Source of the DNA: an uncultured virus (IMG/VR IMGVR_UViG_3300040751_003707)
Lineage: Duplodnaviria; Heunggongvirae; Uroviricota; Caudoviricetes
Virus record (IMG/VR): IMGVR_UViG_3300040751_003707
Direction: 5' to 3' (one strand)
Length of the DNA stretch: 20,000 nucleotides
Shown: positions 469-19,709 of the stretch, in pieces
Layout: the number at the start of each line of letters is the position of its first letter
Numbering within the stretch: position 1 is the stretch's first letter
The notes under the pieces: model-generated
Told to the model about the DNA's origin: nothing
The model's database searches: none
What the model saw: only the letters and a program-made list of their open reading frames with translations
Made by a program: the position numbers and the translations under genes

Positions 469-492
469 AAATACTTCCGACTAAAGACCAAA
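466..492 (+). promoter_or_regulatory. putative phage-RNAP promoter, copy 1 (predicted +1 G486)
   Basis: TAAAAATACTTCCGACTAAAGACCAAA is intergenic and near-identical to copies at 8206 and 16125. Confidence 0.75.
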
Positions 493-506
493 CAAGAGAG
501 GTTAAG

Positions 507-1259
507 ATGATCGCACTAATAGATGGAGACGTTCTCCTTTACATGGCAATCTGGGATACAGAAAACTTGACTGAAGCAATTGCTAATCTTAATGAAAAAA
601 TTAAAAATGCAAAAGAAGGCTGTTTTGCAGATGAAATTGCAATTGCAGTAGGCGGTCCTAATAATTTCAGAGAAAAGTTATATGACAAATATAAGCTTAC
701 TGCAATCAGGCAAACATCAAGGCTAAACAAGGCTGATTGGTTCGATGAGCTTAAGGCATATCTGTCTTCATTAGAAGAGTCTGTACTTACAGATGGATAT
801 GAGGCTGACGATCTTTTACGGATATGGGCAGCAGTTTTAGCAGAAAGAGGGATCCCTCATGTTGTTGTATCAATTGATAAAGACTTAGACTGTATTGTTG
901 GTAATCATTATGACCCTAAAAAAGATCATATATACAAAGTAGATCAGGAATATGCAACAAGATTCTATTGGAAACAAATTTTAACAGGTGATAGCGTAGA
1001 TAACATCCCCGGTATTGAAGGTGTCGGCCCTAAGACGGCTGAAAAAATTTTGAACGGGCTTTGTACAGAAGAAGAATATAAAGCCGCTGTGTGTAGAGCT
1101 TACTATAAAAAGTACGGATCTGACACAGGGTATAGCAACCTCTTACTAAATGGCAAACTAATTCATATCTGGCGCTATTATGAAGACTACTTCACGCTAG
1201 ATAGGAATTATTACGATGAGGTTAACAAAGAGCAAGATAGGGCATTGGAGATTTCATAA
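507..1259 (+). CDS. 5'-3' exonuclease / flap endonuclease (T7 gp6 / RNase H-like)
   Basis: Motifs LIDGD, YEADD, SIDKDL and H3TH GDSVDNIPGIEGVGPKTA. SD GAGAGG upstream. Confidence 0.92.
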   Translation: MIALIDGDVLLYMAIWDTENLTEAIANLNEKIKNAKEGCFADEIAIAVGGPNNFREKLYDKYKLTAIRQTSRLNKADWFDELKAYLSSLEESVLTDGYEADDLLRIWAAVLAERGIPHVVVSIDKDLDCIVGNHYDPKKDHIYKVDQEYATRFYWKQILTGDSVDNIPGIEGVGPKTAEKILNGLCTEEEYKAAVCRAYYKKYGSDTGYSNLLLNGKLIHIWRYYEDYFTLDRNYYDEVNKEQDRALEIS

Positions 1260-1701
1260 CAAACACCCAAATTACTTTGACAATGAAAAATACTTTGGTT
1301 TTTTATACTGCATAGAAAACAAAATTACCAATCAGTTCTATATAGGTAAAAAGCAATTCTTTCATCATGCAAAACGTTCTTCAAAGTTGCATAACAAAGA
1401 GATGACTTGGAGATCTTACACAAGTTCTTCTTTACATCTAAACAATGCAATCAAAGAGCATGGGAAGAAAAACTTTGACTTCGTTATTATAGACTTATAC
1501 AAAACAAAAGGTGGTCTGTATTACTCAGAAGTTTACTCTCAAGTTGTATTAAGTTGCTTAACAGAAAGGTTAGAAGACGGTATAACCCCCAGGTTTTATA
1601 ATCGTCAAATTGCTGCTGTAAGATTTATACCTAAAGAACCTCCAACAAGTAACACTAAATTGTTTATAAAAGATTTATCAAAAAGGTTAAAGATATGCTA
1701 A
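1216..1701 (+). CDS. GIY-YIG-superfamily endonuclease
   Basis: FGFLYCIENKITNQFYIGKK followed by WRSYTSSS and a C-terminal FYN motif. Confidence 0.7.
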   Translation: MRLTKSKIGHWRFHNKHPNYFDNEKYFGFLYCIENKITNQFYIGKKQFFHHAKRSSKLHNKEMTWRSYTSSSLHLNNAIKEHGKKNFDFVIIDLYKTKGGLYYSEVYSQVVLSCLTERLEDGITPRFYNRQIAAVRFIPKEPPTSNTKLFIKDLSKRLKIC

Positions 1702-8207: not shown

Positions 8208-8232
8208 AAAACACTTCCGACTAATGACCAAA
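8206..8232 (+). promoter_or_regulatory. putative phage-RNAP promoter, copy 2 (predicted +1 G8226)
   Basis: AAAAAACACTTCCGACTAATGACCAAA, upstream of the HNH/tRNA cluster. Confidence 0.75.
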
Positions 8233-8298: not shown

Positions 8299-8658
8299 AT
8301 GAAAGTATGTACAACATGTAATATTGAAAAACCATTAGACTTGTTTTACAAACAGAAAAACAGAAAAAAATCAGTAATGTCTCAATGCAAGTCTTGCTCG
8401 AATAAAAAGCAAAAAGAACGTAGAGAGTACTTAACTAAAATAGTAAAAAGATACAAATTACTAAAAGGTTGTGAGTTTTGTGGATATAGAGATCATTTTT
8501 CTGCTTTACATCTAGATCATCTAGACCCAAGCAAAAAATTTAAAGCATTGTCTAGAATGCAAACCTATTCAAAATCTCGGATAAAAGAAGAAATAAGAAA
8601 ATGTAGAGTATTGTGTGCAAACTGTCACGCTGTTTATACATTTTATCAACAAAAATAA
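8299..8658 (+). CDS. free-standing HNH endonuclease with N-terminal CxxC module
   Basis: GCEFCG...LHLDHLDP...CRVLCANCH, plus N-terminal CTTCNIEKP..QCKSC. Confidence 0.88.
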   Translation: MKVCTTCNIEKPLDLFYKQKNRKKSVMSQCKSCSNKKQKERREYLTKIVKRYKLLKGCEFCGYRDHFSALHLDHLDPSKKFKALSRMQTYSKSRIKEEIRKCRVLCANCHAVYTFYQQK

Positions 8659-8747: not shown

Positions 8748-8830
8748 GCCAGTATGGTGAAATTGGTAAACACAGGGGACTTAAAATCCCCCGCGAAAGC
8801 TTGTCGGTTCAAGTCCGACTACTGGCACCA
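8748..8830 (+). tRNA. tRNA-Leu(UAA)
   Basis: Acceptor GCCAGTA/TACTGGC; GGGGA-CTTAAAA-TCCCC anticodon arm; long variable arm; A73 and encoded CCA. Confidence 0.95.
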
Positions 8831-8835
8831 ATTAT

Positions 8836-8910
8836 GCTCTTGTGGTGTAACGGTAACACTCACCGCTCATAACGGTTGCGCTACAGGTTCGAATCCTGTC
8901 GGGAGCACCA
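8836..8910 (+). tRNA. tRNA with CAU anticodon (elongator Met or lysidine Ile2)
   Basis: Acceptor GCTCTTG/CGGGAGC with G1-C72 paired, so not initiator-like; loop CTCATAA; ACAGG-TTCGAAT-CCTGT; ends ACCA. Confidence 0.92.
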
Positions 8911-15516: not shown

Positions 15517-16113
15517 ATGAAAGAATGTTTTGATAAATCACTCAGTGAAGTTCTTAAGTATGAAGGTGGGTTCTCAAACCATCCAAGTGATACCGGTGGA
15601 GCCACTAACAAAGGAATTACTATCGGCACCTATCGACGTTATAAAGGGAGTGCATCAGTAACAGTAGATCAGCTTAAGAACATCACAGAAGACGAAGTAA
15701 GGGATATCTATAAGAAACTCTATTGGGATAAAGTCCGTGGGGATGAACTACCACCGGGACTTGACTTCTTGACCTTTAACATGGCAGTTAATGGAGGTCC
15801 ATCCAGAGGTGTTAAACTACTACAATCCTCTCTTGGTGGGCTTGATGTTGATGGCATTATCGGACCAAACACTATGAGAAAAGCTTGGCTCACTTACCTT
15901 GAACCAAGGGATAACAGCATTGTAACTGTATTCGATGAGTTTGAATCAGACACTAATGACTTCTACACAGGAATTGTAGAAAGAAATAGAAGTCAATCAG
16001 CCTTTATCCGGGGGTGGATTAACAGATCTCATGCTGCTTGTACCTTTGCTAAGGATCTTCTCTTATGGTTTGATGAAGAATATGATGTAAGTGGGTATGA
16101 AAAATACCTATGA
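15517..16113 (+). CDS. endolysin, glycoside hydrolase family 108
   Basis: YEGGFSNHPSDTGGATNKGIT, IYKKLYWD, FNMAVNGG, VDGIIGPNT and FIRGWINR. Confidence 0.92.
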   Translation: MKECFDKSLSEVLKYEGGFSNHPSDTGGATNKGITIGTYRRYKGSASVTVDQLKNITEDEVRDIYKKLYWDKVRGDELPPGLDFLTFNMAVNGGPSRGVKLLQSSLGGLDVDGIIGPNTMRKAWLTYLEPRDNSIVTVFDEFESDTNDFYTGIVERNRSQSAFIRGWINRSHAACTFAKDLLLWFDEEYDVSGYEKYL

Positions 16114-16124
16114 AAATAAGGGGG

Positions 16125-16146
16125 TAAAAATACTTCCGACTAATGA
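16125..16146 (+). promoter_or_regulatory. putative phage-RNAP promoter, copy 3 (predicted +1 G16145)
   Basis: TAAAAATACTTCCGACTAATGA, upstream of the structured RNA and the late/packaging genes. Confidence 0.75.
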
Positions 16147-16415
16147 TAAAACGGTATACATGTATATATCAATCCTCTGATGTAGTTATTATGCACTATG
16201 TAGGTTATTATATTTGTAGTTATATATTGTTTGAACATAACGGGACTTCTACTGACATCTGAAAGAAGTATCCCTTACGCCCCCCGATGATGTCACTTTG
16301 ATAGGTGTTATTTATTTAATGACAACTCTCCTTCGGGGGGTTAATGTTTAAATAATATATAACTATAAATATAATAACCTACATAGTGTGTTAAAACTAT
16401 ATTATATTGATTTCT
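16145..16415 (+). ncRNA. candidate structured ncRNA or long 5' leader
   Basis: 48-bp stem 16191-16238/16344-16391 with 5 G-U pairs, outer extensions out to 16168/16411, a GC-rich multi-helix core and no ORF. Confidence 0.6.
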
Positions 16416-16538
16416 TTTAATTTTTATTTATTTATTTTATAGATTAAAGTTAAAAAAGATCAAAAAATGCATGAAAAAATATTAAAAAGAACTTTGTAGA
16501 ATACATACATAAATAACTTTACTAAAGAGGTGAAACCT

Positions 16539-16820
16539 ATGTCTGAATCAGAAAAACAAGAATGGCATTTATCTAAGTCAGTTCCGCTGACAATTATCTT
16601 TGGAGTCATTGTGCAAACCATTACGCTTGTATGGTTCTTTGCTGTACTCCGAAGTGATGTTGATGTAAACAGAGCTAATATCTTACGTCTTGATGCTCGA
16701 ACAGAACAGCTTGAGACTGCTGTACATACACAGTCATTGGCTATTGCAAGAATGGATGAGAATATTGCTTTCATCAGAGCTTCGATTGAACGTATGGAGA
16801 GGGTAAGATCAGGGAACTAG
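16539..16820 (+). CDS. single-TM coiled-coil protein, holin-like candidate
   Basis: SD GAGGTG before ATG 16539; TM VPLTIIFGVIVQTITLVWFFAV; near the endolysin. Function is inferred from context only. Confidence 0.6.
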   Translation: MSESEKQEWHLSKSVPLTIIFGVIVQTITLVWFFAVLRSDVDVNRANILRLDARTEQLETAVHTQSLAIARMDENIAFIRASIERMERVRSGN

Positions 16821-16883
16821 TAGTATTGTTTTTATGTATGTATTTATGTATTGATTGATTAACTTAATAAGGATGGTAGAACA

Positions 16884-17228
16884 ATGGAAGAAAAGGAAGA
16901 GAAGCCTAAAAGAAGAGGCCCCGGTGGAAAGACAAGAGGGGCAGGTCGCCCTAAAGGCTCAAGAAATGTACACAGTAAAGACTCTGTTAAAAAGCTAGAT
17001 GAACTAAAGTTTGATCCTATTGAAAAGATGGTTCATGAGTATAATGAAATTAACAGACTACTAGATGAAGGACAGATCAGAGTTGGTTCCGGTGCTCATG
17101 CTCAACTTATTGCTACCAAAGCCACTCTTATTAATAACCTAATGCAATATGGTTATAAGAAAGTACCTGATAAACAAACTATTGGTGATCCTGATCTGAA
17201 ACCTATTGCAATCAAACTAACAACTTAA
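16884..17228 (+). CDS. putative terminase small subunit
   Basis: Basic GRPKGSRN N-terminus and a helical body; lies upstream of terL. Confidence 0.55.
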   Translation: MEEKEEKPKRRGPGGKTRGAGRPKGSRNVHSKDSVKKLDELKFDPIEKMVHEYNEINRLLDEGQIRVGSGAHAQLIATKATLINNLMQYGYKKVPDKQTIGDPDLKPIAIKLTT

Positions 17229-17692: not shown

Positions 17693-18523
17693 ATGAGTAG
17701 AGAAATTGAATTACATAAAGGACAATCGGAGGTTATCAGAGATCTTTTTATTGATAAGAATTGTAGATATGCTGTTGTTAATGCCTCTCGTGGTTTTGGT
17801 AAATCTTACGCTGCTTCTGTAGCTGCTATGCTTGCTGTTCAAGAGTTAATGGAATTACCGGAAGATGTCCCAAATAAGAACGTAGCTGTTATTGCACCAA
17901 CCTACAGTCAGGCAGTGGATATTTACTATCCTTTGATTGCCTATCAGCTTGGTATGGAAGACTATGCAGAGAAAACATCTAAGAACGCAGGTACTTTCTG
18001 GTTCCCTAAAAACGTACAGTTAAAGATCTGGTCTTATGAAGCCTCTGCCCGTATGAGAGGGACAGGCCAGTACTTTGTTGTTGCTGATGAAGTTACCTCT
18101 TGGAAGGGCGCTGGTATGAACCTCAAAGAGTCTTGGGAGAGTATTATTCAACCTTGTGTCTCTACAAGATGGTCAAAAAAGAATGCTGACAAATTTGGTG
18201 CCAATCCGGGTAGAGGTCTTATTATTTCCACTCCCAATGGCTATGACTATTTCTACGAGCTGTACAATAGGCAGGAGCACGATAATGAGTGGCGATCATA
18301 CACCTATACCTACAGGGATTCCCCCTACCTAGACGAGGAAGAGATTGAGAGAGTGAAGCTGTCTGTGGATCCTCTTAAGTTTGCCAGAGAATACGAAGCC
18401 AGTTTTGAAGATTCAGGTAATAACGTATTCTATACCTTCGACAGAAAAGAACACATTGATGCTTCTCTCCCATACTTTGAAGATGAAGAAGAAGTACATG
18501 TGGCAATTGACTTCAATGTCGGT
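17693..18523 (+). CDS. terL: terminase large subunit, exon 1
   Basis: Walker A SRGFGKS, Walker B VVADE, ISTPNG and FAREYEASF; ends at nuclease motif VAIDFNVG. Confidence 0.92.
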
Positions 18524-19202
18524 AAAGTTTTAGCCGACTTTAAACTCCGTGAATTCAGAGAAACCCCTAACGTAAAGACGAGGGCAACCCTGAGCCAAGC
18601 CTATTTATATAGGAAGGTGCAACGACTATCCCTTGTGGAGTACACTCAAGTGAGTGGAAGCGCGGAGATACATTTAATAATGTATAAGATATAGTCTGGT
18701 CTTATAGGAAACTATAAGCAGTTGTTTTGTTATGTCACCCTGAAAAGGAGACCTGACATGAAAAAATGTTGTGTATGTAAAATAGAAAAACCCCTTTCTT
18801 CTTTTGGAAGTCATAAAGGAAGAAAAGACGGAAAACAAACTTATTGTAAAGATTGTTCTAAATCTGAACAAACCAAATGGTATTACAAAAGAAAATACAA
18901 TATAACCATAGAACAAAGAAACCATTTGTTAGAGAAACAAAATGGTAGATGTGCAATCTGTTATTCTTTAATAGACTTCCATGATGGTTGTAGAGGTAGC
19001 CGGACAGGCAATAGCGCCGTTATAGACCATTGCCATGGAAAAGGACACATAAGAGGTGTTCTTTGTGGGCATTGTAATACTGGATTAGGTGCATTTAAAG
19101 ATAATATAAACAATTTGAGTATAGCTATAGAATACTTAAATAATAATTAACTACATAACAAAACAACGATCAAGGATTAACGACCTTTGGTGAACATAAA
19201 CG
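18524..19202 (+). mobile_element. group I self-splicing intron (679 nt) in terL
   Basis: P1 GTCGGT/GCCGAC with U18523-G18533; P3 CTCCGT/GCGGAG; R element GCAACGACTA and S element AAGATATAGTC (P7); P9 CTTATAG-GAAA-CTATAAG; terminal G19202; splicing restores the frame. Confidence 0.93.
18758..19150 (+). CDS. intron-encoded homing endonuclease, T4 endonuclease VII-like
   Basis: SD AAGGAG; YNIT..QNGRCAIC..IDHCHGKGHIRGVLCGHCNTGLG. Confidence 0.9.
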   Translation: MKKCCVCKIEKPLSSFGSHKGRKDGKQTYCKDCSKSEQTKWYYKRKYNITIEQRNHLLEKQNGRCAICYSLIDFHDGCRGSRTGNSAVIDHCHGKGHIRGVLCGHCNTGLGAFKDNINNLSIAIEYLNNN

Positions 19203-19709
19203 ATTATGGCTTCTGTTATCTTTGCTATCAGAGGTAATCAAATCCATGTATTAGATGAAATGCAAGGTCATCCAGACACAGAAACGTTAGCAAATAGATT
19301 AAAAGAAAAGTTTAAGAGTAATCGGAGAATCATTTCTTACCCAGATCCAGCGGGTAAAGCAAGGAAAACATCTGCTGCAGTGGGTACAACCGACTTCTCT
19401 ATTTTACAATCAGCTGGAATTGTCACAAAGGCACACAGTAAAGCTCCACCAATCATTGATTCGGTTGCTGCTGTTAATAAGAAATTCAAGAATGCCAACG
19501 GTGATATTGATATCCTAGTTCATCCCAGATGTGTTAATACGATTAAATCTATTGAAAGAACACAATGGACTGAGTCTAATCCAGATACAGCTACTATCGA
19601 TAAGAAAGAAGGTATTGAACATTGGTCAGATGCTTTCCGTTATGCTGTTGAGTATCTGTATCCTATCAGAGCCGGTACTAAAGTAGCTACAAGAGGTTTC
19701 AACTTTTAA
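19203..19709 (+). CDS. terL: terminase large subunit, exon 2 (RNase H-like nuclease domain); spliced product 445 aa
   Basis: Junction reads DFNVG|IMASVIF; motifs YPDPAG and HWSDAFRY. Confidence 0.92.
   Translation: MMASVIFAIRGNQIHVLDEMQGHPDTETLANRLKEKFKSNRRIISYPDPAGKARKTSAAVGTTDFSILQSAGIVTKAHSKAPPIIDSVAAVNKKFKNANGDIDILVHPRCVNTIKSIERTQWTESNPDTATIDKKEGIEHWSDAFRYAVEYLYPIRAGTKVATRGFNF

What the first reader, a model, noticed from the sequence alone, without database searches (positions are those of the whole stretch)
16145..16415. Candidate novel promoter-driven structured RNA: long dsRNA stalk presenting a kissing-loop core, upstream of packaging genes
Seen: directly after promoter copy 3, 16191-16238 pairs with 16344-16391 (48 uninterrupted bp, 5 G-U). 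The stalk is extended by 16178-16187/16395-16404 and ATCAAT/ATTGAT, and followed by a U-rich tract. The enclosed ~105-nt core is more GC-rich. It has a hairpin GGGACTTCT/AGAAGTATCCC (16242-16274) whose loop TGACATC (16253-16259) is complementary to GATGTCA (16289-16295), which sits inside a second domain closed by CCCCCCGA/TCGGGGGG (16280-16287/16333-16340). Known: loop-loop pairing oligomerises phi29 pRNA, and structured phage RNAs can engage immune sensors. Inference: an uncharacterised ncRNA or late-operon leader (packaging scaffold, decoy, or processed RNA). I do not recognise it as a known family.
Basis: partly seen in the sequence, partly recalled or inferred. Interest (0 to 1): 0.85.

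Follow-up and report, generated by a model that had tools for sequence, protein, structure and literature searches.

The report
New pseudoknotted phage leader RNA family
The inverted repeat is the local, unusually long-stemmed copy of a previously undescribed folded RNA that a group of uncultured estuarine and marine phages place right after one of their own promoters, ahead of their lysis and DNA-packaging genes; what it does is still unknown.

Summary
It is not a one-off. The 105-nt core belongs to a conserved RNA family found upstream of the terminase gene in uncultured relatives of the Naomviridae roseophages. 22 of 26 related loci with at least 3.4 kb of upstream DNA carry it. In 36 distinct sequences 97.2% of cells pair and 32 of 43 pairs show compensatory change. 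That includes 5 of the 6 pairs of the loop-loop (pseudoknot) helix. No Rfam family matches. Bacterial and archaeal genomes gave 0 hits from 49 pattern candidates. The RNA starts at a phage-specific promoter that recurs 3 to 6 times per genome, and these phages encode a T7-like RNA polymerase. The 60-bp stalk is peculiar to this phage; relatives have about 13 bp. Best reading, at moderate confidence: a folded 5'-terminal domain of the late transcript that acts as a stability, processing or protein-docking module. A free-standing RNA, a ribozyme or a packaging role are not excluded. Transcription of this copy is not shown.

The parts
16120..16144 (+). Phage-specific promoter, copy 3. The conserved block is about TAAAAATACTTCCGACTAATGA. 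The predicted start of the RNA is near G16145, which is an inference.
   Evidence: 3 copies in the window at 469, 8209 and 16128, all on the + strand, against 0.13 expected. The related motif AATACCTGACGTT[TA]AAGA lies just upstream of the RNA in relatives and recurs 6 times in G002 and 5 times in G003, always on the gene strand. A T7-like RNA polymerase (PF00940, 272-290 bits) is encoded in G002, G003 and DSS3_VP1.
16168..16173 (+). P1, 5' strand (ATCAAT); pairs with 16406-16411.
   Evidence: Exact reverse complement. Homologous to family P1, in which 7 of 8 pairs show compensatory change.
16174..16178 (+). Conserved asymmetric internal loop, 5' side (CCUCU; family CUCU or UUCU), facing AU at 16404-16405.
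   Evidence: UCU and the facing A are invariant in the 17-sequence seed. Homology to the window was read.
16179..16238 (+). P2, 5' arm, expanded here to 9 + 48 bp around a 3x3 loop (16188-16190 / 16392-16394).
   Evidence: Pair counts. Family P2 is 13-14 bp, with 11 of 14 pairs compensatory.
16242..16274 (+). P3 hairpin with a 13-nt loop ACU-GACAUC-UGAA (16251-16263).
   Evidence: 8 of 9 P3 pairs are compensatory. The closing U-A pair and the loop flanks UAC and UGAAA are nearly invariant.
16254..16259 (+). Pseudoknot / kissing strand a (GACAUC).
   Evidence: Pairs with 16289-16294. Family variants are GACAUC/GAUGUC, GAUAUC/GAUAUC, GGUAUC/GAUACC, AACAUC/GAUGUU, GAUACU/AGUAUC and UGCAUC/GAUGCA. 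5 of 6 pairs are compensatory and 99.5% of cells pair.
16280..16286 (+). P4, 5' strand (CCCCCCG); pairs with CGGGGGG at 16334-16340.
   Evidence: 5 of the 6 counted pairs are invariant C-G. The outermost pair covaries: CG 27, AU 6, UA 2.
16289..16294 (+). Pseudoknot / kissing strand b (GAUGUC), 2 nt after P4.
16296..16333 (+). Variable P5 region enclosed by P4.
   Evidence: Its length and sequence vary across the family, and it is nearly absent in L037.
16334..16343 (+). P4 3' strand, followed by the junction UUA (family UUAU).
16344..16411 (+). 3' arms of P2 and P1, including the internal-loop AU.
16412..16440 (+). U-rich tract after the stalk. It is specific to this phage and could serve as a terminator tail or an RNase E-type site (inference).
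   Evidence: Read. No such tract follows P1 in L076 or L080 or in the other relatives listed.
16473..16522 (+). Spacer features before the first late gene: an A/T-tract (GAAAAAATATTAAAAAG, from 16473) and AATACATACATAAATAACTTTAC (16500-16522). The second resembles the relatives' promoter plus P1 5' strand.
   Evidence: Coordinates. In G002 and G003 an AAAAAATTTC motif occurs once per genome, just upstream of the o114 homologue. Its meaning is unknown.
16530..17228 (+). First late genes after the RNA. o96 has a transmembrane helix and a coiled coil. o114 is basic and helical and is a possible small terminase (inference).
   Evidence: Translations. Homologues follow the RNA in every related locus that holds downstream DNA. 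No Pfam assignment was found.

Best explanation
The element is this phage's copy of a conserved, previously undescribed structured RNA. It is most likely the 5'-terminal domain of the transcript that the phage's own T7-like RNA polymerase starts at promoter copy 3, at the head of the late (lysis membrane protein, o114, terminase) gene block.

It would fold as it is made. The very 5' end pairs with a segment about 150-250 nt downstream, forming P1, a conserved UCU/A internal loop and P2. This stalk carries a three-way junction. The 13-nt loop of hairpin P3 forms a 6-bp helix with a strand held just inside the G/C-clamped helix P4.

The conserved face is the pseudoknot end (UAC..UGAAA and CCCCCCG-NW), not the junction. 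I therefore read it as a docking or recognition surface for a protein, on a stalk that buries the 5' end. At about 22 bp or more, interrupted by an internal loop, the stalk has the form of the RNase III processing sites of T7 transcripts.

In this phage P2 has grown to about 60 bp of near-perfect duplex and is followed by a U-rich tract. This copy would therefore be an especially good RNase III substrate and a partial terminator.

Shown: the fold, its conservation and covariation, the strand, the position after a recurring phage promoter, and the synteny. Inferred: that it is transcribed from that promoter, that it acts in cis on the late transcript, that a protein binds the pseudoknot face, and that the stalk is cleaved.
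For: Fold and family. In 36 distinct sequences 97.2% of cells pair and 32 of 43 pairs have changes on both sides. 0 of 500 shuffles reach this, and slid controls pair at 41-57%. The pseudoknot was not part of the covariance model, yet 5 of its 6 pairs covary.

Strand. Model scores are 81-170 bits on the + strand for 39 full-stalk hits and 57 bits for the three minimal-stalk copies, against 33 bits or less on the - strand. All 7 non-Watson-Crick stalk positions in the window are G-U on the + strand.

Promoter link. The RNA begins within about 5-30 nt of a motif that recurs 3 times in the window, 6 times in G002 and 5 times in G003, always on the gene strand. A T7-like polymerase is present.

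Synteny. In all 26 related loci tested, and in all 13 further ones that hold downstream DNA (of 17 tested), the RNA lies upstream of the o114 homologue. Where TerL is within the locus, the RNA lies upstream of it too. This holds even where a 247-aa gene or holin-like membrane genes are inserted between them. That pattern fits a role at the level of the transcription unit rather than control of one gene's translation.

Prevalence. 22 of 26 TerL loci with at least 3.4 kb of upstream DNA carry it.

Where conservation lies. The junction strands vary and tolerate an extra hairpin (L010, L013, L016, L024). The P3 loop flanks and P4 are nearly invariant.

Late genes of this phage were transcribed in the sampled estuary. 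Contigs of RNA libraries X4 and X8 carry the terminase exons joined at 18523/19203.
Against: No transcript of this copy was seen. In RNA libraries X4 and X8 the contigs stop at 16160 and 16153 and resume at 16454 and 16683. These are assembled contigs, which also break at the repeat in the DNA run, so this argues neither way. The 3' end of the RNA is unknown. A unique A/T-tract motif and a promoter-like remnant lie between the RNA and the first late gene. The late genes may therefore have their own start, and the RNA may be a separate unit. No partner protein is identified. The sequence invariance of P4 and of the loop flanks would equally suit catalysis or ligand binding. The cultured relatives DSS3_VP1 and DSS3_PM1 lack a detectable copy.
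Confidence: 0.4

Rival explanations
1. It is a free-standing, abundant trans-acting RNA: a decoy, sponge or scaffold. It would be released from the 5' end of the transcript by cleavage in or after the stalk. Its conserved pseudoknot face would bind a host or phage factor. In one version the 6-bp pairing forms between molecules and builds dimers or rings, as in phi29 pRNA.
For: It lies at +1 of a strong phage-type promoter. The closing stalk buries both ends, as in stable small RNAs. The distance to the next gene varies from about 115 to 1,330 nt, with genes inserted in between. A possible separate start for the late genes lies in the spacer. The two pairing strands are not self-complementary in most variants, so reciprocal pairing in trans is sterically possible.
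Against: No conserved terminator or 3'-end signal follows P1 in relatives. P3 (about 10 bp) and P4 plus 2 nt (about 9) place the two strands at matching heights on neighbouring helices, which favours pairing within one molecule (inference). The terminase is a classical large subunit with a Terminase_6N domain, so a pRNA-like adaptor is not needed. No Rfam pRNA match was found.
Confidence: 0.25
2. It is a self-cleaving ribozyme of a new class. A hairpin loop pairs into the internal loop of the next helix, the same strand order that I recall for pistol ribozymes. It would trim the 5' leader.
For: It has a compact pseudoknotted core with invariant unpaired nucleotides. Small ribozymes are common in phage DNA (recalled knowledge).
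Against: No match to pistol, hammerhead, twister, twister-sister, hatchet or HDV models, even at E up to 10 in the window and E up to 5 in 8 member loci. A hammerhead reading of CUGAAAG...CGAUGA fails. The GA of GAUGUC is inside the covarying helix, and the position that would be the invariant A6 varies among A, C and G. One RNA-library record carries the L080-type core uncut across 345 nt, though DNA carry-over cannot be excluded.
Confidence: 0.08
3. It is a ligand-sensing riboswitch that gates read-through of the phage polymerase into the late genes.
For: Its 5' position, its three-way junction with a distal tertiary contact (as in purine riboswitches, recalled), and, in this phage, a stalk followed by a U-rich tract.
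Against: The junction, where such aptamers bind ligand, is variable and accepts an extra hairpin. No conserved alternative pairing or terminator follows P1 in relatives. No Rfam riboswitch matches.
Confidence: 0.07
4. The repeat acts as DNA: a packaging (pac) site, an origin or a genome end, with cruciform extrusion or protein binding to the palindrome. Alternatively, in this phage it is mainly a terminator or insulator closing the upstream early/middle transcript.
For: It lies next to the presumed small-terminase gene, where pac sites often sit (general knowledge). The surroundings are A/T-rich. Several assemblies break in or beside it, for example L005, which starts at window 16414, and L020, L023 and L028, which start inside it. 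In T7 and T3 the phage polymerase pauses at the concatemer junction and meets gp18/gp19 to start packaging (passage in PMC3276506).
Against: Double-stranded DNA sites need neither G-U-tolerant, strand-specific covariation nor a covarying pseudoknot. The stalk sequence is not conserved while its pairing is. The near-complete contigs G002 and G003 do not end at the element. The DNA run also breaks there, in the manner of a repeat-induced graph break.
Confidence: 0.06

Closest known systems
phi29 packaging RNA (pRNA, Rfam RF00044)
   Same: 5' and 3' ends pair into a long helix that carries a three-way junction. Two loops with covarying complementarity. The gene lies near the packaging functions of a phage.
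   Different: No sequence or structure match. The terminase here is a classical large subunit (Terminase_6N), not the phi29-type ATPase. The pairing here is 6 bp, between a hairpin loop and a strand inside a helix-closed loop, and is well placed to form within one molecule.
Pistol self-cleaving ribozyme (Rfam RF02679)
   Same: The order of strands, as recalled: hairpin, linker, outer helix 5' strand, partner of the hairpin loop, variable hairpin, outer helix 3' strand.
   Different: No model match. The core is about twice the size, the conserved nucleotides differ, and it is embedded in a long closing stalk. Cleavage is untested.
RNase III processing sites and 5' stem-loops of phage T7 transcripts
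   Same: Made by a single-subunit phage polymerase. A duplex of about two helical turns or more, interrupted by an asymmetric internal loop. Lies at gene-block boundaries. A paired 5' end could stabilise the message (established T7 biology, recalled).
   Different: T7 sites are simple hairpins without a conserved pseudoknotted core. Here the internal loop sequence (UCU/A) and a 95-nt tertiary core are conserved, which host RNase III would not require.
Unnamed candidate structured RNAs of viruses and phages (Fremin and Bhatt 2023, PMC10690425)
   Same: That survey of IMG/VR predicted over ten thousand motifs. The main text says 14 are consistently upstream of a putative large terminase domain (passages seen).
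   Different: I could not establish whether this family is among them. The motif strings were absent from the six supplementary files that could be searched. Two large files and one other were not searched.

Membership tests
phi29 pRNA | Match to the Rfam covariance model RF00044 | tested here: not met
   No hit at gathering score in the window, nor at E up to 10 in 16100-16480.
phi29 pRNA | Loop-loop pairing that forms between molecules to build a ring | tested here: inconclusive
   The pairing covaries at 5 of 6 pairs. Covariation cannot separate pairing in cis from pairing in trans.
phi29 pRNA | Works with a phi29-type packaging ATPase on a protein-primed genome | tested here: not met
   The terminase is a split classical large subunit with Terminase_6N.
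Pistol ribozyme | Match to Rfam RF02679 and its conserved nucleotides | tested here: not met
   No hit in the window or in 8 member loci.
Pistol ribozyme | Site-specific self-cleavage | not testable with these tools
   Needs an in-vitro cleavage assay.
Hammerhead ribozyme | Invariant CUGANGA and GAAA cores flanking stem II | tested here: not met
   The position that would be A6 varies among A, C and G. The GA lies inside the covarying helix. No Rfam hit.
Three-way-junction riboswitch aptamers (purine type) | Conserved junction nucleotides that form the ligand pocket | tested here: not met
   J2/3 varies in length and sequence and holds an extra hairpin in L010, L013, L016 and L024.
T7-type RNase III processing site | Duplex of about 20 bp or more with an internal loop, in a phage-polymerase transcript | tested here: met
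   P1 (8 bp), the loop and P2 (13-14 bp) in the family. About 6 + 9 + 48 bp in the window.
T7-type RNase III processing site | Cleavage by host RNase III | not testable with these tools
   Needs an enzyme assay or end-mapping from raw reads. Only assembled contigs were available.
New family defined here (model R1) | P1-loop-P2 stalk, P3 with a 13-nt loop, G/C-clamped P4, 6-bp pseudoknot | tested here: met
   The window scores 81.4 bits, E 9e-20, against a model built without it. All elements are located in the window.

The most novel reading that the evidence does not exclude
The RNA is part of the packaging machinery of a phage with a classical terminase. One possibility is that the nascent folded RNA, still tethered to the phage's T7-like polymerase just upstream of the terminase genes, marks the DNA where the terminase assembles. 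That would be an RNA-defined pac signal, extending the known T7/T3 coupling of polymerase pausing to packaging. The other possibility is that copies join through the covarying 6-bp contact into a pRNA-like ring.
Probability: 0.06. Interest if true: 0.9.

Novelty: new variant of a known kind. Interest (0 to 1): 0.62.

Why it matters
This adds a well-supported RNA fold with a covarying pseudoknot to the short list of conserved non-coding RNAs in lytic marine and estuarine phages. It is tied to a defined promoter of a phage-encoded single-subunit polymerase, at the switch to late genes. That makes it directly testable. The RNA is short enough to transcribe in vitro and probe for cleavage, multimers and partners. 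If it regulates or marks the late/packaging transcript, it would be the first such element described for the Naomviridae-like dU-DNA phage lineage. It would also be a rare case of a structured leader acting with a T7-like polymerase. If it only stabilises the message, it is a tidy but ordinary addition to RNA family catalogues.

Tried and rejected
**DNA similarity searches.** Searches of the phage record collection with the region found nothing, in both near and distant modes. The window's own assembly is not held. The nearest record, G001, shares only the promoter motif with the query and does not reach the element.

**Host-type promoter scan.** Five sigma-70-like sites were found against 5.6 expected, so there is no support for a host promoter. 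Terminator-like hits at 16326-16340 are simply the 3' part of P4.

**Hammerhead reading** of CUGAAAG / CGAUGA was rejected on covariation.

**Seventh loop-loop pair** (T16253-A16295). It is not conserved: most relatives have C.A or U.C there.

**Bacterial and archaeal genomes.** 49 pattern hits were found, about the number I estimated for chance matches. 0 pass the model at E up to 0.01. The pattern covered only pseudoknot types ending ..CATC/GATG...

**Viral pattern scan.** I tested 30 of the 60 hits, those from contigs I did not yet hold. 19 are members and 11 are not at E up to 1e-6.

**Cultured relatives** DSS3_VP1 and DSS3_PM1 gave no hit with default filters. DSS3_VP1 also gave none with filters off (best 6.1 bits).

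**RNA libraries.** The window's own element is not covered by the contigs of X4 and X8, and only from 16318 in X5. The DNA run X1 covers it in three overlapping pieces. The two RNA contigs stop 7 nt apart (16160, 16153). That is at most a weak hint.

**Literature.** The Naomviridae paper has one unrelated use of 'promoter' (about the terminase intron) and no mention of a non-coding RNA, an RNA polymerase or intergenic elements (term search of the text). A five-term search for a terminase-upstream pseudoknotted RNA found 0 papers. The supplements of PMC10690425 that could be searched lack the motif, and three files were not searched.

**Identity of o114.** No Pfam family at E up to 5, apart from a chance-level CHAT hit. 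A language-model look-alike search points weakly to a DUF5681 cluster (score 0.92). 'Small terminase' therefore remains an inference.

Full report
**1. What the window is**

All sizeable reading frames run on the + strand. They encode:
- a 5'-3' exonuclease, a T7-type primase-helicase, a ribonucleotide reductase and a dCMP deaminase;
- two tRNAs, an RNA ligase and an endolysin (15517-16113);
- then small proteins and a large terminase.

The terminase is split by a group I intron that carries an endonuclease VII-type gene. Its N-terminal part is 67% identical to that of roseophage DSS3_VP1, which is filed under Naomviridae. The window is 29-49% G+C. Sequencing runs labelled estuary hold 84-96% of the sampled words. 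So this is an uncultured estuarine relative of that phage family.

**2. The observation**

- 48 uninterrupted pairs, 43 Watson-Crick and 5 G-U.
- A 10-pair extension.
- The ATCAAT/ATTGAT hexamers. ATTGAT lies at 16406-16411; my script tested 16405-16410 by mistake.
- The 7-nt loop complement and the C/G clamp.

The + strand RNA folds at -106.9 kcal/mol, z -12.2, with 0 of 200 shuffles as good. The - strand folds 26 kcal/mol worse, because all seven non-Watson-Crick stalk positions are G-U on the + strand. The element starts right after one of three copies of a 17-nt motif, against 0.13 expected.

**3. It is a family**

A search of viral contigs with the terminase gave 80 related loci. In L076 and L080 the same core sequence sits between inverted repeats of entirely different sequence. 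A motif search found the core in 36 of those loci.

I built a covariance model from 17 compact members, without the window. It found:
- 41 loci plus the window at E of 6e-13 or better, and one truncated copy, among 85 sources. Scores were 57-170 bits on the + strand and 33 bits or less on the - strand.
- 19 members among 30 further candidate loci from a pattern scan.

Of the 26 terminase loci with at least 3.4 kb of upstream DNA, 22 carry the RNA. It lies 977-3,359 nt upstream of the terminase start. One of the four exceptions, L052, holds a divergent RNA at the same place. It has a similar stalk, a G/C-clamped domain and a plausible 5-bp loop contact of different sequence.

Bacterial and archaeal genomes gave 0 members from 49 pattern candidates.

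**4. The fold**

Read on L082:4182-4341 and carried to the window, the fold is as follows.
- P1: 8 bp.
- Asymmetric internal loop: CUCU on the 5' side facing AU. UCU and the A are invariant in the seed.
- P2: 13-14 bp.
- A three-way junction.
- P3: 4 + 5 bp, with a 13-nt loop A-C-U-[6 nt]-U-G-A-A.
- A 5-nt linker.
- P4: CCCCCCG/CGGGGGG.
- Two variable nucleotides, then the 6-nt partner of the P3 loop.
- A variable hairpin, P5.
- Junction UUAU, leading back into P2.

On 36 distinct sequences 97.2% of cells pair and 32 of 43 pairs have changes on both sides. No shuffle of 500 reaches any of the five measures. Sliding the partners by 1-3 columns drops pairing to 41-57%.

The alignment is fitted to the model for the nested helices, which inflates those numbers somewhat. 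The pseudoknot was not in the model, yet 5 of its 6 pairs covary. The variants seen are GACAUC/GAUGUC, GAUAUC/GAUAUC, GGUAUC/GAUACC, AACAUC/GAUGUU, GAUACU/AGUAUC and UGCAUC/GAUGCA. P4 is almost invariant in sequence.

The junction is the least conserved part and holds an extra hairpin in four lineages. Minimal forms (L025, L141, L145 types) keep only the P3-P4-pseudoknot core, about 95 nt, closed by a 6-7-bp helix.

**5. What is special here**

The window's P2 is expanded to 9 + 48 bp. Relatives have 13-14 bp, 21 bp in L076 and 20 bp in L080. Only in the window does a U-rich tract follow P1.

**6. Promoter and polymerase**

The window motif (AAATACTTCCGACTAATGA) and the relatives' motif (AATACCTGACGTT[TA]AAGA) share the same layout. 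Each lies just upstream of P1, within about 5-30 nt in the copies examined.

The relatives' motif recurs 6 times in the 60.8-kb contig G002 and 5 times in G003, always on the gene strand. G002, G003 and DSS3_VP1 encode a 722-735-aa protein that matches the T7-type polymerase family at 272-290 bits. I infer that this polymerase reads these promoters, and that the RNA begins near G16145, so that its 5' end is built into the stalk. A host-type promoter scan gave nothing above chance.

**7. Context**

In all 26 loci tested, and in all 13 of the 17 that hold downstream DNA, the RNA is followed by a homologue of o114. This is a basic, helical small protein that may be the small terminase (an inference). 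Usually a homologue of o96 (transmembrane helix plus coiled coil) comes next, and then the terminase.

In some lineages a 247-aa gene or two to three holin-like membrane-protein genes lie between the RNA and o114. The RNA thus marks the head of the late block, whatever the first gene is.

The spacer before o114 carries an A/T-tract motif that occurs once per genome. In the window it also carries a 23-nt stretch resembling the relatives' promoter plus P1 strand. A separate start for the late genes cannot be excluded.

**8. Expression**

Contigs of two RNA libraries (X4, X8) carry the terminase exons joined at 18523/19203. In X4 the join has no differences over 623 nt. The join restores a 445-codon frame without stops. 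An intron-less allele with three differences also exists in a DNA run, so splicing is likely but not proven.

One X4 record carries the L080-type element.

The window's own element is not covered in X4 and X8. Because these are assembled contigs that also break at the repeat in DNA, I draw nothing from that.

**9. Comparison with what is known**

No Rfam family matches in the window or in eight member loci. In outline the element resembles phi29 pRNA: paired ends, a three-way junction and covarying loop contacts. It fails the pRNA model, and the packaging ATPase is of a different type.

Its strand order matches what I recall of pistol ribozymes, but no model matches. A hammerhead reading fails on covariation. 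Its stalk has the form of T7 RNase III sites.

The Naomviridae description has only one unrelated mention of a promoter and mentions no non-coding RNA (term search). A survey of over ten thousand viral RNA motifs may include this family, but its sequence files could not be searched.

In T7 and T3 the phage polymerase pauses at the concatemer junction and meets the terminase subunits to start packaging (passage in PMC3276506). That keeps a packaging-linked role conceivable.

**10. Verdict**

The element is a real, conserved, strand-specific RNA fold with a proven tertiary pairing, new to Rfam, at +1 of a phage-polymerase promoter ahead of the late genes. That part I hold at about 0.95.

Its function is unresolved. 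My estimates are:
- cis-acting 5' domain that buries the 5' end, offers a protein-docking pseudoknot face and is processed in the stalk: 0.4;
- released trans-acting RNA: 0.25;
- ribozyme: 0.08;
- riboswitch: 0.07;
- DNA-level site or terminator: 0.06.

Noticed in passing
window 17693-19709: The large terminase gene is split by a group I intron (Rfam hit at 18475-18718, 93.8 bits) that carries an endonuclease VII-type homing gene (18722-19150). Contigs of RNA libraries join 18523 to 19203, and the joined exons give a 445-codon open frame. A DNA run also holds an intron-less allele, which joins 18522 to 19206 with 4 other letters in between.
   Followed up: partly
window 469-485, 8209-8225, 16128-16144; G002 and G003 contigs: A phage-specific promoter family of AATAC...GAC...TAAxGA layout. 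There are 3 copies in the window and 5-6 per 60-kb relative, all on the gene strand. They include tandem pairs about 90-120 nt apart in G002 and G003, which recall the paired T7 promoters at its replication origin.
   Followed up: partly
G002:C1:19163-20326, G003:C1:16545-17690, G004:C1:13428-14534, MN602266.1:24386-25507: Besides the 722-735-aa T7-like polymerase, each relative has a 1,450-1,510-aa open frame with a weak (29 bits) but above-threshold match to the same polymerase family. This may be a second, possibly virion-borne, polymerase.
   Followed up: no
window 16473-16522; L019, L026 and other loci just upstream of the o114 homologue: A conserved A/T-tract (AAAAAATTTC-like) occurs once per genome between the RNA and the first late gene. 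In the window, AATACATACATAAATAACTTTAC resembles the relatives' promoter plus P1 5' strand, as if left over from a rearrangement.
   Followed up: partly
window 16530-17228 versus relatives: The order of the two small late genes is o96 then o114 in the window. It is o114 then o96 in the relatives that hold both.
   Followed up: no
L085 (MN602266.1) 2230-2530: DSS3_VP1 lacks the RNA family. At the syntenic place it has two promoter-like repeats (GGGTRCGTTAAAGA) followed by a G+C-rich, hairpin-rich leader of about 170 nt that contains CCCUGAAAGG. This may be an analogous, unrelated or very diverged element.
   Followed up: partly
L052 2591-2820: A divergent RNA at the same position (18.9 bits, E 0.002; fold z -7.7). 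It has a similar stalk and G/C-clamped domain but a different core, so the family is probably wider than model R1 detects.
   Followed up: partly
L005, L020, L023, L028, L105, L009 (contig ends): Several public assemblies begin inside or immediately beside the RNA. L005 starts at window position 16414. This is probably a graph break at the inverted repeat, but a physical DNA end was not excluded.
   Followed up: no
window 1216-1701, 8299-8658, 8748-8910: Further mobile-type genes, a SegE-like GIY-YIG endonuclease and an HNH endonuclease, lie beside tRNA-Leu(UAA) and tRNA-Met(CAU).
   Followed up: no
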